Source: Myxococcales bacterium
Lineage (GTDB): Bacteria > Myxococcota_A > UBA9042
Direction of reading: 5' to 3'
Length of the DNA: 64,000 nt
NCBI GenBank assembly: GCA_037441385.1
Contig: JBBISH010000003.1
Coordinates: forward strand, 64,001-128,000
Shown: positions 27,001-33,000 of the stretch, in pieces
How the letters are laid out: every line of letters starts with the position of its first letter
Numbering within the stretch: the first letter of the stretch is position 1
Program-made: the position numbers

Positions 27001-30000
27001 GTGGACAATTACCCAAGCGAAATCCGTGTTCCTGGCGCTGTGAGCGTGCCGCCGCCCAAGAGTGGCGCCATCGTCACGGCCGTGCGCGCCCACATGCGCT
27101 TGCCCCCCGGCGCCAGCGTCGCGGTCGCCATGAGCGGCGGCGTGGACTCCAGCACGGTCGCGGCCCTCCTCGTCGAGGCGGGCTATCAGGTTTTTGGTTT
27201 GACCGCGCGATTGTACGACCTAGACCCGGCGCAGATCGGTCGCGCGGGCAGTTGCTGCGCACCCGACGACGCCCGCGATGCCAAAGCCGTGGCCGGCGTG
27301 CTGGATATCCCGCACTACACCGTGGACGAGCGCGGGAGTTTCGCGCGCGACGTGATCGCGCCGTTCGAGCAAGCCTGGCAGCGCGGTGATACGCCCAACC
27401 CGTGTGTCGCCTGCAACCGCTCGCTCAAGTTCGATCGACTGGTGGCCACCGCCCGCGCGCTGGGCGCCATGGCCTTGGCGACGGGCCACTACGCGCGCCT
27501 GGAGCTGCAAGACGGGCTCCCCACCTTGCGGCGTGGCGTGGATCCCAACAAGGATCAGGCGTACTTCCTGTATCCGTTGGCGCGCGAGGCCGCTGAATTC
27601 GTTCGCTTCCCCCTGGGCGACATGAGCAAGGGTGAAGTGCGCGGCCACGCGCTGCGGCTGGGTGTCCCTACTGCCAGCAAAGCCGAGTCCATGGACATCT
27701 GCTTTGTGGGGGCCGAGCGCACCCAGGCTTGGCTAGACAAGCGGACGGCGCCGGTGCGGGGCACGATCGTCGATACCCACGGGCGCGTCCTGGCGGAACA
27801 TACCGGTCTTGCTGGCTTTACTGTGGGCCAGCGCCACGGCTTGGGCCTGGCCGCGCGCCCCGACGGCAGCCCCTGGTACGTGGTCGACAAGCGCGGCGAC
27901 GGCACAGTGGTGGTGGGCGAACGGGCGCAACTGCAGGTGGCACGGCTCGATCTGGGCGAGTGCATTTGGCTGGCTGGCTCGCCGCCCCAGCAGGGTCAAG
28001 AGATCCAGGTGCAAATTCGCCACCGCGGCCAGGCTGTGCCGGCGCAGGTGCTGTCCGCGGGGCCCGACAGCGCAACAGTCCAGGTTGTTGGTGAATTGCT
28101 GGCAGCAGCCCGCGGTCAGAGCGCCGTTCTGTTTGCCGGCGACCGCGTCTTGGGTGGCGGACTCATCACCCAAGCCGAAGGTCGGGAGCCGCTATGAGCG
28201 ATTTCGTGCGCGGCGAGCGCCGCTCGTCTCGTCCCCTGATTCCCGTGCCCGACACCACGGCCGGCACATTGGAGCTGGTGCGGCGCCTGGGATACACGTT
28301 TGCCGACCCCAGCTTGCTCGAGGCTTCGTTGACCCATCCGTCGTGGCACAACGAGCATCCCGAGGCCGTGTCCGACAACCAGCGCCACGAGTTTTTAGGC
28401 GACGCCGTGGTTGGCCTGGTGATCACCGAGGCGTTGCTCGAGCGCATGCCCGATCGGCGCGAAGGCCAACTGACCGTGCTGAAATCGCAGTTGGTGCGCG
28501 AGTCGGCACTGGCCGAACTGGCGCAAGCCCTGGGCATCGGCGGCGCGCTGCGCTTGGGCCGCGGCGAAGACTACACCGGCGGGCGCCGGCGAACTTCCGT
28601 GTTGGCCGACGCGTTCGAGGCGGTGGTGGGCGCCGTGTTCGTCGATGGCGGCTATGCTGCAGCGCGCGAGGTGGTGCGGCGCCTGTTCGACGACCTGCTC
28701 GACGCCGCGGCTGCTGCGGTGGCCGAGCTGGGTGCGACGCCCACGGCGTTGTCGGCCGGCGTAGCCAATTGGAAGACGGCGGTGCAAGAACTGCTGCAGC
28801 AGCACGCGAACCTGCCGCCGACCTACGCGGTGGTCGACGAGCAAGGTCCTTTCCACGCGCGGACTTTTGTGGTGCAAGCGACCGCGCGGGCGGCCGGCGA
28901 AAAGGGTGAGGTCGAATTGGTGGGCGTGGGGCGCGGTCCCAGCAAGAAGCTGGCCGAACACGCCGCCGCGTCGGACCTGTACCAGCGCGTTCTGACCCAT
29001 GTGAACAACGCCGACCCCACCTTGGCCGCGCTGTTGCAGGCGCCCGTGACCCGCCCCTCGGGTCTGCGCGCTCGCCCGCTCGCGTTGGGCGACGTCAAGA
29101 AGGCGCCTGACGATGATTCCGATGGCGCGTCCCCATGATATCGGCTACTCTTGGGGGATTGGCGCCGCGCGGCCGCGTACACAAACCGGGCCACGCAGGC
29201 GGGGAGCGAAGATGTTGAGCCTGAATTGGATTGCGATTGGTGTAGGCGCGGGCCGCCTTGAGGTGCGACAGGCCATGTTGGGTACCTGGGAAATCATTGC
29301 TATTTTGGCGGTCGTCGTGCTCCTGTTCGGCGCGAACAAGCTGCCCCAGCTGGGCAAGGGCCTGGGCGAAGCCATCGGCAACTTCAAGAAGGCGCAGCGC
29401 GAAGGCGAAAAGGGCGTGCTGCACGACGAGATCGATGCGACGCCGCGGGTCGAGGCTGAGCGCAAGAAGAGCCTGGATCGCGACGAGCACGCCTAGAGAC
29501 CTGACCAATTACGGTACACTCGTTCAGTTCTTGGATGTTCTGGTCAGGTCTCTCGCTGCTAGGTGGGTCGCAAGCTCGCCCCGTTGGGGACTCGCCGCTC
29601 CAATTGCAGCGGGTCCGGCGCGGCGAAGAACTCAAATTGATGCGCTCTCTAGAACACGGATCCATTTAGACTTTCTCCGCGCAGCCGAACCGTCGAATTC
29701 GGCGCGGTCAATCGCAGCCGGCGCGCACGCACAGGGCTTTGGCGTATCCGACCTGCGGATCGCGGACGCCGGCCGCCGCCCGCGCACAACCCCAACCACA
29801 GGCAGGTACGGCGCCGCAAAAACGCGCCGGGGCTGCTCAGGCAAGGACCTGGCAACCCCGGATCGTTGTGCGATGGGCAGCGACTACTTCAGGTGCTCGA
29901 CGCCGACCTTCTTGACGGTGGCCTTCCAGACCTTGGCGGGCAGCCACTTTGGGCGATTGGCGGGAGCCGTGGTCTCGACGCGGCCGCCGTTGAACACGTG

Positions 30001-33000
30001 CACGCGCTTGGTGCCGCGCTCGCGCAGGCGAATCTCGGTGTAGCCGCGGGCCGCAGCCTTCAGGGCCGCGCCGCGCGGTTGGGCGTTCGAGAAGACCACG
30101 TTGGTGTCCTTGCCTTCCTGCATCAATACGAAATTCTTCTTCTCTTTCTCTGCCATGATCCAGCTCCCCCCGGATTGCAGCAGCCGGGTGCCAACCGCAC
30201 GAGCGGTGCGGTCGTCGTCGGTGCGCCGCGAGCCTGGCCTCTCCAGCCTCGACGGACGAACCCCTATTGGCTCGAATCGGCGACCTGCGCCGCGGTCGTG
30301 CCCTGGCGGTGGCGTCTGCACCGGCCGCCGACCTGGCGCCCTCCGTGCAAAACCCGTGACCGTGTCGCTTCCCGCGGTTGCCCGCCGGCAGCTCCTCTGT
30401 CGCACCACTCACTTGTCGGCAGGTATGGGCCGGTTTTCGTCGTTATGCAAGCGGCAAGCGCGGCGGCAACGCCAGGTGACGATAATTCCGCTGAAGTTGG
30501 CCGCGCGGCAAATTATGCCGTTGACAGGCGAGTGCGATTGAGTATCTATATATTTCAACGCGTTATATGTAGAGCGTCTGCAGTTCAACGATTTGGCGGC
30601 GCGGCGCGAGCGGCGATTTCCCCATGATCACGGTACGCGAGGGCCGTGATCGTTTTTTGCTGGTCGCGCACAGAATCGCCGGGCGCGGCCCGCGGTATGG
30701 GCCCATTTTGCGTACACCAGCCGGGCGCCGCTCGCCAACGCGCTTGGGACTTCGCCTGATTATTCAGCAGTTGCAAACGGCTCGCGAACTGGTCAAGTCC
30801 GACAATCGTGCTACCGTAGCGGCACGGCAGCATGCAAGCCCTGGCGTGGCGAGCAAGGTGGTGTGGGTGGGCCAGCACAGGGCGAACGCAACCAGGGGAG
30901 CAGCCGCGTGGCCAATGTGGGCTGCGGTGGGGATCCTGCTTTGGCACGCGGCCGCGACACCGGCTTGGGCGGTGGCTGCGCACGCGCGGGCCAAGAGTGG
31001 CAAGACAGCGGCCGCCAAGGCCGTGCCAACCAAGGCAGCCAAGCCGGCGAGTGCAAAGGGGAAGCCGGCCACTAGCAAGACGTCTGGCGGCGCGACTGCC
31101 AAGAACTCGGGCACAAAGCCGAAACCAGGCAAGGCCAAGGCGGCGGGGAGCGGCAAAAAGGTCAAGGCCGGCAAGACCAAGACGCCCAAAGTCCCGGCGC
31201 ACGCGGCGCGAGTGGTGCCCAGCCAAAAACGCAGCCAAGACGGTCGGTCGCACCACGACCACCGCGCCAAATGGGCGCAATTGCACGAACTGATTCAGCG
31301 CTTTCGCGTTGGGGCGTTGGCGGGACTAGACGGCAAGTTGCGCGGCCTGATCGACGGCGCCCAAGGCGATGTGGCACTGGCGGGTTCGCTGGTGCTGGCA
31401 CGCACGCAAGCGAGCCTTCGGACTGGTGATCTTGGTGTCCAGGCCTTGGAGGACGCCAAGCCGCTGCGCCAAGCCCTGCCGGCCAGTTGGGACTGGGCCC
31501 AGATCGAGGTGGACTACGCTGCCGGTCATTTCGGCCAAGCCCTGGAGCACATGCGCGAGTTCCGTAAACAATACGGTGATTTTCGCTGGGCGGCCGCCGA
31601 TCTTCTTTATAGCCGGCTTGCCGAGCGGGTCGCGCCCCCCCAAGAGGTCGCGGAGATTGCCCTGGCGCTCTACGAGAAATCGGCGCTGCACCTGCCCCGC
31701 GACGAGCTGCTGGCGCGCGCGGCCCGGGCCAGCGAGCAGATCGCCGGCCCCAAAGCCATGGGACTATGGCGAAAACTGCTTCTGCAACACCCAGAGAGCG
31801 AGTTCGTCGCCGAAGCCGCGAGCCACGTTGACGTGTCAACCTTGACCGACCCCGAGAACTACGACCGCATGGCGTTGCTGTTTGCGCGCCGCGCGTACGA
31901 GCGCTGCCGCGAGGTCGGAAAGCCCTTGTGGTTCAAGGGATATCGGCTAAGCGAGGTGGGCTACTACCTGGGCAAGATCGGCTCGGAGCGGCTGCGCGAC
32001 GACTACCCGGGGGCGGCGGACTACTTGCAGGCGGCCAGTGTGGTCGACGCTCCCCATGCGGCCGCAGCCCTGTCGTCGTATGCCCTGGTGCTGGGCAAGC
32101 TGGGGCGTTTTGACGAGTCGATCGCCAAGTACGACGAATGGCTGCAGCGCTACCCCGCGGTGGGCAACGAGCGCCGGGTCGAACTGCACTACGATCGCGC
32201 CCGCATGCTGCACGTTTCGGGCAAAAGCCTGCAGGCGGCCGAGGACATGGCCAAGGCGCTCGCGGCCGATGATCGCGGGATCGACGTGGGCAAGTATCAG
32301 TGGTTCGTAGGCTTTTGGTACTACCTGGGCAAGGACTACGGCCGCGCGCTCGAAGCGATGAAACCGCTGCTGGCCAACCCCAACCCGCTGGTGGGCGGCA
32401 AGGCCAACTACTGGACGGCCAAGGCCCTGGATCGCCTGGACCGCCGCGACGAGGCGGTGACGACACTGGACGGGCTGCTGCGGCGCTACCCCCTGACCTA
32501 CTACAGCGCCTTGGGCGAGCGGCTCTTGGTCGATTGGGGCAAGGTCGATCACGTGCCCAAAGCTCAGGATTTCTCAAAGGTGATCGATGCCGCGCCCGAT
32601 CCGTTTGCCGATCTGGCCGCCGATCCGCAGCTGGACCAGTTGCGCCTGGCCTGCGCGGTGGGCGAGCCCGACAGTTGCCAAGTCGCTTGGGACGCGGCCG
32701 AAAAGAACCTGCGCAAGCTGCTGGGCGACGACGCGGTGCAAAAACTCCAACGCGAACTGGCCGACCCGCTCGAGCGCTACGCCGATGCGCGCGAAGAGGC
32801 GCTGCGGCAGAACGGCCATGTTTTGCTCAAGTTGCCCACGACCCAGACGCTGGCGGACTGGCGTGCCATCTACCCGCGCGCGTTTGCCACCCATACGGCC
32901 GCGGCAGCCAAGCGGTCGGGCGCGCCCGAGTGGATGATCTACGCCCACATGCTGCAGGAATCGCGCTACAAACCCTGGCTGATCTCGGGGGCGCCCGCGT

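What a model noticed while it worked through the whole genome (the two positions that open the first line are those of the whole stretch)
29884..30156. Archaeal chromatin protein MC1 in a bacterium (Myxococcota_A, family UBA9042)
g00357 (90 aa, basic) is a full-length homolog of the archaeal nucleoid protein MC1, known as a chromatin protein of Methanosarcina/Methanothrix, haloarchaea and marine group II archaea. It is a single-copy, stand-alone gene kept in most genomes of this bacterial family, so it is a resident bacterial gene and a likely nucleoid-associated protein next to the single HU/IHF-type gene (g02843). All bacterial MC1 genes found go back to one origin.
Evidence so far: Pfam MC1 PF05854 99 bits, model 1-95 of 96; 59% identity over 85 aa to Methanothrix MC1c, 50% to Methanosarcina MC1. 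PF05854 in six-frame DNA of 29 of 36 other genomes of the family (12 of 14 genera), one copy each, and 11 of 70 genomes of other families of the class; of 14 control genomes only Haloferax and Methanosarcina ring. relatives.tsv: 103 of 189,784 bacterial species genomes against 1,719 of 10,118 archaeal. Nearest archaeal genes in the GTDB species genomes are those of marine group II archaea (Poseidoniales/Thalassarchaeaceae), 62-71% identical. In a maximum-likelihood tree of the 80 best loci of that scan plus this gene and one more distant archaeal gene (82 rows, none dropped) t [...]
(Added by a program. Inside this text positions count along the whole contig: contig position 64,001 is position 1 of the stretch shown here. 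"Call 12" and the like, gene names such as g00115 and contig names such as C1 are that model's own, and its searches are not shown. The text may have been shortened before it was handed on; [...] marks where a part breaks off. The agent that wrote the report below was given it as the finding of a first reader that could run no searches.)

Follow-up and report, generated by a model that had tools for sequence, protein, structure and literature searches.

The report
Archaeal-type MC1 chromatin protein in a bacterium
A small, basic DNA-bending chromosome protein typical of archaea (MC1) is a conserved, resident gene of an uncultured myxobacteria-like family, so these bacteria probably fold part of their DNA with a tool best known from archaea.

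Summary
Window 29884-30156 (minus strand) encodes a 90-aa, pI 10.7 protein that matches Pfam MC1 over its full length (99.8 bits) and the solved Methanosarcina MC1 (E 9e-19). It lies on a 166-kb bacterial contig between rnc/tatA and a lytic transglycosylase gene. It is single-copy. I found it in 29 of 36 other genomes of the family, and in 28 of 29 of those loci it sits beside the same neighbour. It is under purifying selection, has host-like GC3, and its codon bias equals that of HU and ribosomal genes. The DNA-intercalating Pro/Trp arm and the key Arg are kept.

Best reading: a resident MC1-type nucleoid protein that bends DNA.

- "Single HU" is a property of this assembly; 9 of 10 congeners have two matches.
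- One bacterial origin is neither shown nor rejected (AU p 0.20 and 0.28).
- Bacterial and marine-group-II archaeal MC1 form one strong clade (100/96). In all three trees the archaeal sequences sit inside the bacterial ones, with weak support, so the direction of transfer is open.

Bacterial MC1 is mentioned in passing in a 2017 paper, and this scan has reported it before on other genomes.

The parts
29884..30156 (-). MC1 coding sequence, 90 aa plus TAG stop (protein P0001), pI 10.66
   Evidence: Pfam PF05854 99.8 bits over 1-95 of 96; PDB 1T23 E 9.3e-19. The longer 174-aa open frame from GTG 30408 is not used. In 30 of 30 family loci the profile match starts at the ATG that follows a Shine-Dalgarno motif, while the open frame length varies from 91 to 330 aa.
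30164..30171 (-). Shine-Dalgarno-like GGGGGGAG, 7 nt before the ATG
   Evidence: Read. A purine-rich GGAG/GAGG motif lies 5-10 nt upstream of the start in 30 of 30 family loci, by eye.
30157..30623 (.). 467-bp intergenic region shared with the divergent neighbour; the presumed promoter region of MC1 (inferred, not mapped)
   Evidence: The sigma-70 consensus scan found 0 sites. There is no excess 5'UTR structure.
30624..33416 (+). Large SLT-domain lytic transglycosylase gene, the conserved divergent neighbour of MC1 in this family (context; its true start is uncertain)
   Evidence: Pfam SLT 55.5 bits. It is adjacent and divergent in 28 of 29 other family loci, the 29th being too short. It is not adjacent in any of the 25 distinct non-family bacterial loci.
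29275..29496 (+). tatA (context, convergent with MC1)
   Evidence: Pfam TatA_B_E 63.7 bits.
28194..29138 (+). rnc, ribonuclease III (context; a bacterial housekeeping gene)
   Evidence: NCBIfam TIGR02191 200 bits; Pfam.

Best explanation
The gene encodes a genuine MC1-family architectural DNA-binding protein that is a resident, vertically inherited and probably highly expressed gene of this Myxococcota-type family.

By analogy with the solved Methanosarcina MC1-DNA complex, it should bind DNA as a small basic monomer on the concave side, with little sequence specificity. Basic side chains (K7, R51, H53, K78, K83) would clamp the phosphates of a narrowed minor groove. R28 on the helix would neutralise the compressed major groove. 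P69 and W71 at the tip of the beta4-beta5 arm would insert or intercalate and kink the helix into a sharp bend.

In the cell it would therefore act as a nucleoid-associated protein alongside HU/IHF, compacting DNA and modulating its topology.

Shown: homology, conservation of the contact residues, residency, selection and codon bias. Inferred: DNA bending, monomeric state, abundance and the nucleoid role.

The family as a whole is overwhelmingly archaeal, so the bacterial genes ultimately came from archaea. They form one clade with the marine-group-II archaeal genes.
For: Homology:
- Pfam MC1 99.8 bits over the full length and PDB 1T23 E 9.3e-19.
- The AF2 model has pLDDT 92.9, and its elements run b1-b2-a-b3-b4-b5. 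That is the MC1 order given in PMC6776556 and in preprint 10.1101/2024.02.22.580433.
- PMC6776556 names 14 DNA-contact residues. Eight are identical here (Q23, R25, H56, R71, P72, W74, K81, K86) and three are conservative (R4K, K54R, I89V), mapped on the alignment.
- R28, H53, P69, W71 and K83 are invariant in all 61 bacterial rows.
- pI is 10.66, against 10.32 listed for the prototype in PMC7613761.

Resident gene:
- The contig is 166 kb and the window carries rho, lysA, mnmA, rnc, tatA, folC, prfB and lepA.
- There is one copy.
- It is found in 29 of 36 family genomes, beside the same neighbour in 28 of 29 loci.
- Of the 7 genomes without a match, I searched four for the neighbour. In two the contig breaks inside that neighbouring gene, and two lack the neighbour as well. 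The other three are 61-69% complete. So no loss is shown.
- dN/dS has a median of 0.21 over 433 pairs, and is 0.026-0.030 for the nearest pairs.
- GC3 is 88%, against about 43% GC in the archaeal loci.

Expression proxy:
- CAI against 23 genes of the ribosomal cluster is 0.732. That is the 97.1th percentile of 4,339 crude ORFs; HU scores 0.736.
- A Shine-Dalgarno motif is present in 30 of 30 family loci.
Against: - There are no expression, proteome or binding data, and no RNA run was listed.
- 3D superposition on the NMR model 1T23 is weak: Foldseek TM 0.48, E 3e-3; VIA Z 3.3, rmsd 4.7 over 68 residues, tied with unrelated chains.
- Three of the 14 contact residues differ (K22A, Q26G, K91H). 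Q26G is fixed in the whole bacterial plus marine-group-II clade, so binding details may differ.
- The six-residue loop of the prototype between the helix and beta3 is absent.
- In Methanosarcina acetivorans the MC1 paralogues are individually dispensable and mainly affect recovery from stress and stasis (PMC13729102; abstract and passages). 'Bulk chromatin protein' may therefore overstate the role.
- CAI rests on a crude ORF caller and a 90-codon gene.
Confidence: 0.75

Rival explanations
1. The evolutionary history runs the other way for marine group II. An archaeal MC1 entered a Myxococcota-like bacterium once and spread among aquatic Myxococcota. A bacterial copy was then passed to the ancestor of marine group II archaea. 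On this view the archaeal genes 'nearest to the bacteria' are descendants, not donors.
For: Rooted on Halobacteriota representatives (named), bacteria plus marine group II form one clade with 100/96 support and 100/95.

In all three trees the marine-group-II rows sit inside the bacterial rows:
- quick tree, 172 rows: sister to a bacterial subclade, SH-aLRT 89;
- careful tree, 103 rows: the same split is present, support 59/83;
- careful tree, 93 rows: marine group II is monophyletic at 100/97 and sister to bacterial L057, support 59/85.

Marine group II shares Y8 and G/A68 with 12 of 17 bacterial rows from other classes. PMC7613761 states that marine group II probably acquired MC1 by horizontal transfer and that other Diaforarchaea lack it.
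Against: The inner branches are weak, and the sister of marine group II changes with sampling. AU does not reject bacterial monophyly (p 0.198; 0.282). The polarity of Y8 and G68 is ambiguous, because both states occur in other MC1 proteins. The closest outgroup, L079, lies in a Thermoplasmatota genome, although only 1 of 4 genomes of its order has the gene. Only 91 alignment columns are available.
Confidence: 0.35
2. The protein is a real MC1 homologue but not a general chromatin constituent in these bacteria. It would instead serve a narrower role, such as DNA protection or recovery from stress and stasis, or act as a local architectural cofactor like IHF at particular promoters or recombination sites.
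For: In M. acetivorans the MC1 genes are individually dispensable and modulate lag and recovery from stationary phase (PMC13729102). HU/IHF genes are present in every one of the 107 class genomes, so MC1 does not replace HU. Q26G and K22A alter two contact positions.
Against: Codon bias equals that of HU and ribosomal genes. It is a stand-alone gene with no conserved partner outside the family. The non-specific contact residues and the intercalating arm are strictly conserved.
Confidence: 0.2
3. The gene is archaeal contamination or a mis-binned contig in a bacterial MAG.
For: MC1 is otherwise typical of archaea, and the genome is a MAG of 221 contigs.
Against: The gene lies mid-way in a 166-kb contig between bacterial rnc/tatA and an SLT transglycosylase gene, with rho, prfB and lepA in the window. 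GC is 64% and GC3 88%, like the host. The same neighbour is found in 28 of 29 loci from 12 genera.
Confidence: 0.01

Closest known systems
MC1 of Methanosarcina thermophila CHTI55 (PDB 1T23, 2KHL, 2NBJ; Pfam PF05854)
   Same: About 90 aa, pI above 10, with the same order of secondary-structure elements. 46 of 84 aligned residues are identical. R25, H56, R71, P72, W74, K81 and K86 are kept.
   Different: The host is a bacterium. The protein lacks the six-residue loop after the helix and has K22A, Q26G and K91H. No biochemical data exist.
MC1 of marine group II (Poseidoniales) archaea, noted in PMC7613761 as a probable horizontal acquisition
   Same: 61-68% identical. They form one clade with the bacterial genes at 100/96 and share the clade mark Q26G in 31 of 32 rows.
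   Different: The archaeal proteins have Y8 and G/A68 where this family has N8 and R68. Their loci are about 43% GC and their hosts are marine, whereas the named close MAGs of this family carry lake and groundwater titles.
HU/IHF (Pfam PF00216), the usual bacterial DNA benders
   Same: They work alike. PMC6776556 says that MC1, IHF and HU all bind the minor groove on the concave side, neutralise the backbone charge and insert hydrophobic residues from a beta arm.
   Different: The fold is unrelated and HU/IHF act as dimers; there is no PF00216 match here. HU/IHF genes coexist with MC1 in all 107 class genomes.
Mimivirus gp275, an MC1-like protein (preprint 10.1101/2024.02.22.580433)
   Same: It is another MC1-fold protein outside archaea that is reported to condense DNA (passages).
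   Different: It is only about 30% identical to archaeal MC1, has disordered extensions and carries Lys in place of the key Arg. It is viral.
Bacterial histones of Bdellovibrio/Leptospira (recalled, not read here)
   Same: A precedent for a chromatin protein typical of another domain serving in bacteria.
   Different: A different fold and family. No histone-fold match was found in this genome (90.9% complete).

Membership tests
MC1 (Pfam PF05854, non-histone chromosomal protein MC1) | Full-length match to the family profile above the curated cut-off | tested here: met
   99.8 bits against a cut-off of 23, profile positions 1-95 of 96.
MC1 | Significant sequence similarity to the characterised prototype | tested here: met
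   1T23 E 9.3e-19, residues 6-89 against 3-92.
MC1 | Small single-domain, strongly basic protein | tested here: met
   90 aa, pI 10.66, 20 K+R against 8 D+E.
MC1 | Order of elements b1-b2-a1-b3-b4-b5, with a long b4-b5 arm | tested here: met
   AF2 model, pLDDT 92.9: E7-13, E16-24, H27-36, E41-46, E51-63, E75-88. The order is as described.
MC1 | 3D superposition on a solved MC1 structure | tested here: inconclusive
   1T23 is the top Foldseek hit, but at E 3.3e-3 and TM 0.48. VIA Z is 3.3, tied with unrelated chains. The target is an NMR model with a mobile arm.
MC1 | DNA-contact residues: the intercalating Pro72/Trp74 arm, Arg25, and the basic clamp | tested here: met
   Eight of 14 identical, three conservative, three changed. 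R28, H53, P69, W71 and K83 are invariant in 61 of 61 bacterial rows.
MC1 | Binds and sharply bends DNA as a monomer | not testable with these tools
   Needs purified protein.
Nucleoid-associated protein (functional class) | High cellular abundance and association with the nucleoid | not testable with these tools
   There is a proxy only: CAI at the 97.1th percentile, equal to HU.
HU/IHF (PF00216) | Bac_DNA_binding domain | tested here: not met
   Pfam lists only MC1 and a sub-threshold Endonuclease_NS match.

The most novel reading that the evidence does not exclude
MC1 made a round trip between the domains. An archaeal chromatin gene was domesticated by aquatic Myxococcota and exchanged among their families. 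It was then handed back to archaea, founding the MC1 that nearly all marine group II archaea now use. On this reading a bacterial lineage was the donor of a major archaeal chromatin protein.
Probability: 0.3. Interest if true: 0.75.

Novelty: new member of a known kind. Interest (0 to 1): 0.55.

Why it matters
HU is held to be the near-universal bacterial chromatin protein, and MC1 is held to be archaeal. A whole bacterial family, plus several related ones, that keeps a selected and probably highly expressed MC1 shows that major chromatin proteins can cross domains and be retained. That fits the 'exchangeable NAP' model proposed for archaea.

It also offers a natural test of how an MC1-type bender coexists with HU/IHF. 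And it gives marine-group-II MC1, already thought to be horizontally acquired, a concrete sister group in bacteria.

Tried and rejected
- **RNA evidence.** For window 28200-31800, no RNA holder was listed.
- **Promoter scan.** The sigma-70 consensus scan found 0 sites in 29500-30700, against 0.1 expected.
- **Conserved 5'UTR hairpin before the Shine-Dalgarno motif.** I suspected one by eye, but the mean z against dinucleotide shuffles is 0.14 over 29 loci and none falls below -2. Rejected.
- **Structure searches.** Foldseek and VIA against the PDB gave only a weak match to 1T23.
- **Viral vector.** Seven viral contigs encode MC1-like proteins. The closest, L110 at 58%, scores 129.6 bits to Pfam MC1 and sits beside DUF1699 and an integrase, so it is probably a methanogen-type copy next to an integrated element. 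The other six are 29-35% identical. None is near the bacterial clade.
- **Second bacterial origin.** Following the lead from e1-1424822, I searched with the L078 protein. It gave 97 hits, and all the names shown are archaeal: DPANN, Altiarchaeota or 'archaeon'. That origin could therefore not be tested here. The Atlas search added nothing on bacteria.
- **MC1 displacing HU paralogues.** Family genomes have a median of 2 HU/IHF matches, against 3 in the 70 other class genomes (my count). This is essentially one phylogenetic contrast, and matches are not copy numbers, so I did not use it.
  - In one search my 'tatA' query was cut out of frame. Those rows should be ignored; tatA is confirmed.
  - The first AU test (p 0.033) wrongly forced unlabelled representatives, among them a Myxococcales one, out of the bacterial group. 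It was replaced.
- **Literature.** Searches for bacterial MC1 found only the one-line mention in PMC5499826.

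
Full report
**What is there.**
The minus strand of window 29884-30156 carries a 90-codon ORF. It has an ATG start, and GGGGGGAG lies 7 nt upstream. The protein matches Pfam MC1 (PF05854) at 99.8 bits, E 1.1e-28, over profile positions 1-95 of 96; the only other listing is a sub-threshold one. 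Against all PDB sequences the single hit is the Methanosarcina chromosomal protein MC1 (1T23, 2KHL, 2NBJ) at E 9.3e-19. I count 46 of 84 aligned residues identical, and the prototype has a six-residue loop that is absent here.

**It is a bacterial gene, not contamination.**
- The window lies inside a 166-kb contig and encodes ordinary bacterial housekeeping genes. These include rho, lysA, mnmA, rnc, folC, prfB and lepA, plus tRNA-Glu and tRNA-Lys.
- MC1 sits between tatA and a large SLT-domain lytic transglycosylase gene.
- The gene's GC is 64.4% and its GC3 87.8%, in a window of 66.8% GC. The archaeal loci have 35-43% GC.
- The genome (6.63 Mb, 221 contigs, 90.9% complete, 1.2% contaminated) has one copy.

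**Spread and inheritance.**
- PF05854 is found in six-frame DNA of 29 of 36 other genomes of the family, covering 12 of 14 genera. There is one match each, and 23 of 24 high-quality genomes have it, counting the window's own genome.
- In 28 of the 29 loci the gene lies divergently next to the orthologue of the same transglycosylase gene. The 29th locus is a 1,956-bp contig with too little flank.
- MC1 is 72-99% identical across the family. The compared part of the neighbour is only 39-54% identical.
- I searched four of the seven genomes without a match for the neighbour. In G009 and G012 the contig ends inside it, so the MC1 site is unassembled. G021 and G013 lack the neighbour too. The remaining three are 61-69% complete. 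No real loss is therefore shown.
- Pairwise dN/dS (Nei-Gojobori) has a median of 0.21 over 433 usable pairs, and is 0.026-0.030 for the nearest pairs.
- Elsewhere the gene occurs in 11 of 70 genomes of other families of the class. In an even sample of the phylum it occurs in 17 genomes outside the class, including 9 of 9 of one family.
- In those lineages it is never next to the transglycosylase gene. It sits among ordinary chromosomal genes that are shared only within sublineages. No integrase or transposase is seen among the 87 flanking ORFs of the 25 bacterial loci scanned.

**How it probably works.**
- PMC6776556 (passages) describes the MC1-DNA complex. A basic clamp (Arg4, Lys54, His56, Lys86, Lys91) binds a narrowed minor groove. 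Arg25, with Gln23 and Gln26, neutralises the compressed major groove. Pro72 inserts and Trp74 intercalates from the arm, helped by Arg71 and Lys81.
- Mapped through the alignment, 8 of the 14 named residues are identical here (Q26, R28, H53, R68, P69, W71, K78, K83 in this protein's numbering). Three are conservative (K7, R51, V86) and three are changed (A25, G29, H88).
- R28, H53, P69, W71 and K83 are invariant in all 61 bacterial rows.
- An AlphaFold2 model built on 28 relatives has mean pLDDT 92.9, with elements b1-b2-a-b3-b4-b5. This is the MC1 order.
- Superposition on the NMR model is weak: Foldseek TM 0.48, E 3e-3; VIA Z 3.3. I count it as inconclusive, because the arm is mobile in the free protein.
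- As an expression proxy I computed CAI against 23 genes of the ribosomal-protein cluster. I located the cluster through the L2 match and identified the rest by eye. MC1 scores 0.732, the 97.1th percentile of 4,339 crude ORFs. The HU/IHF gene scores 0.736 and the reference median is 0.715.
- All 30 family loci have a Shine-Dalgarno-like motif before the start.

I therefore read the protein as an abundant DNA-bending nucleoid protein working beside HU/IHF. Bending, monomeric state and abundance are inferred.

**HU/IHF.**
This assembly gives one PF00216 match, but 9 of the 10 other genomes of the genus give two. The genus has two types. The window's genome holds only the one orthologous to G026:C4 (86% identical), and the second type is not in the assembly. 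'The single HU gene' is thus probably an assembly gap. HU/IHF is present in all 107 class genomes, so MC1 accompanies HU rather than replacing it.

**Phylogeny: data.**
- A profile search of 1.84 billion representatives found 489 clusters at E up to 1e-3. Of the best 150 listed, 80 cover the domain fully.
- Representative P0138 stands for Methanoperedens proteins and P0164 for Halobacteriales proteins. Their clade served as the root.
- The quick tree has 172 rows. It leaves out three broken-looking representatives and 13 GenBank duplicates of loci already held.
- The careful tree has 103 rows: all 57 distinct bacterial rows, 13 of 32 marine-group-II rows, L078, L079 and 31 representatives.

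**Phylogeny: results.**
- In the careful tree the 57 bacterial rows, the 13 marine-group-II rows and 5 unlabelled representatives form a clade with support 100/96. Its sister is L079 plus P0154, at 98/84. L079 comes from a Thermoplasmatota genome in an order where 1 of 4 genomes has the gene.
- Inside the clade the branching is poorly supported.
- Bacterial monophyly appears in none of the three trees, but AU does not reject it. With unlabelled rows free, p is 0.198, and 0.282 on a 93-row set without ten long branches.
- Marine group II is monophyletic at 100/97 in the 93-row tree.
- Marine group II sits inside the bacterial rows every time, though at different places.
- Two families of the phylum carry MC1 from two or three different subclades, which points to exchange among Myxococcota.
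- The clade has a diagnostic change, Gln26 to Gly. It is present in 61 of 61 bacterial and 31 of 32 marine-group-II rows, while 40 of 61 other representatives keep Gln.

**Phylogeny: conclusion.**
The ultimate source is archaeal, because the family is mostly archaeal. Bacteria and marine group II share one transfer history. Who gave to whom is open.

**Comparison with what is known.**
- PMC7613761 reports MC1 in most marine group II archaea as a probable horizontal acquisition.
- PMC5499826 lists MC1 among proteins that may accompany HU in bacteria, in one sentence without data.
- Five full-text searches found no study of bacterial MC1.
- Databases already name some of these proteins MC1.
- This scan has reported the same thing on two other Myxococcota genomes (e1-1390750, e1-1494531). 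It has also reported an apparently separate case in Omnitrophota (e1-1424822), which I could not test.

**Verdict.**
This is a real, resident bacterial member of the MC1 family, and most likely a DNA-bending nucleoid protein. Interest is moderate to high for chromatin evolution. The boldest reading still open is a bacterial origin of marine-group-II MC1.

Noticed in passing
G000:C58:14046-14324 (L109:1501-1776); not in the window: The genus has two HU/IHF types. This assembly holds only one. The IHF-alpha-like second type, present in G026:C23, G001:C10 and G028:C175, finds only the first-type gene at 34% identity in the laid genome.
   Followed up: partly
L045-L061 (other classes of the phylum): Family f25 (9 of 9 genomes with MC1) and family f29 carry MC1 from two or three different subclades of the tree. 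This suggests exchange of the gene among Myxococcota lineages rather than purely vertical descent.
   Followed up: partly
L110:5001-5270 (IMGVR_UViG_3300010346_002716), and L111-L116: Seven IMG/VR contigs encode MC1-like proteins. L110 (58% identical, 129.6 bits to Pfam MC1) sits beside DUF1699 and a tyrosine integrase, and is probably an integrated element in a methanogen. Six contigs of 44-85 kb carry copies only 29-35% identical.
   Followed up: partly
P0131, P0136, P0214, P0235, P0262 (representatives): In several representatives of 236-527 aa the MC1 domain makes up only part of the protein: C-terminal in P0131, P0136 and P0235, internal in P0214, N-terminal in P0262. These could be real fusions or over-long ORF calls.
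   Followed up: no
L079 (G527:C42:16945-17199): A 4.0-Mb Thermoplasmatota genome outside marine group II holds the closest outgroup of the bacteria plus marine-group-II clade. Only 1 of 4 genomes of its order has MC1, so this too looks like a sporadic acquisition.
   Followed up: partly
window 29884-30408 (-): The open frame extends to 174 aa from an upstream GTG. In relatives the open frame varies from 91 to 330 aa while the profile match always starts at the ATG. This is a high-GC artefact that could mislead gene callers.
   Followed up: yes
window 36661-38586 (-): A GMC oxidoreductase matches NCBIfam cholesterol oxidase ChoxAB at 631 bits, below the 850-bit cut-off.
   Followed up: no
window 59864-60016 (-): tRNA-Lys(ttt) and tRNA-Glu(ttc) genes directly abut each other.
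   Followed up: no
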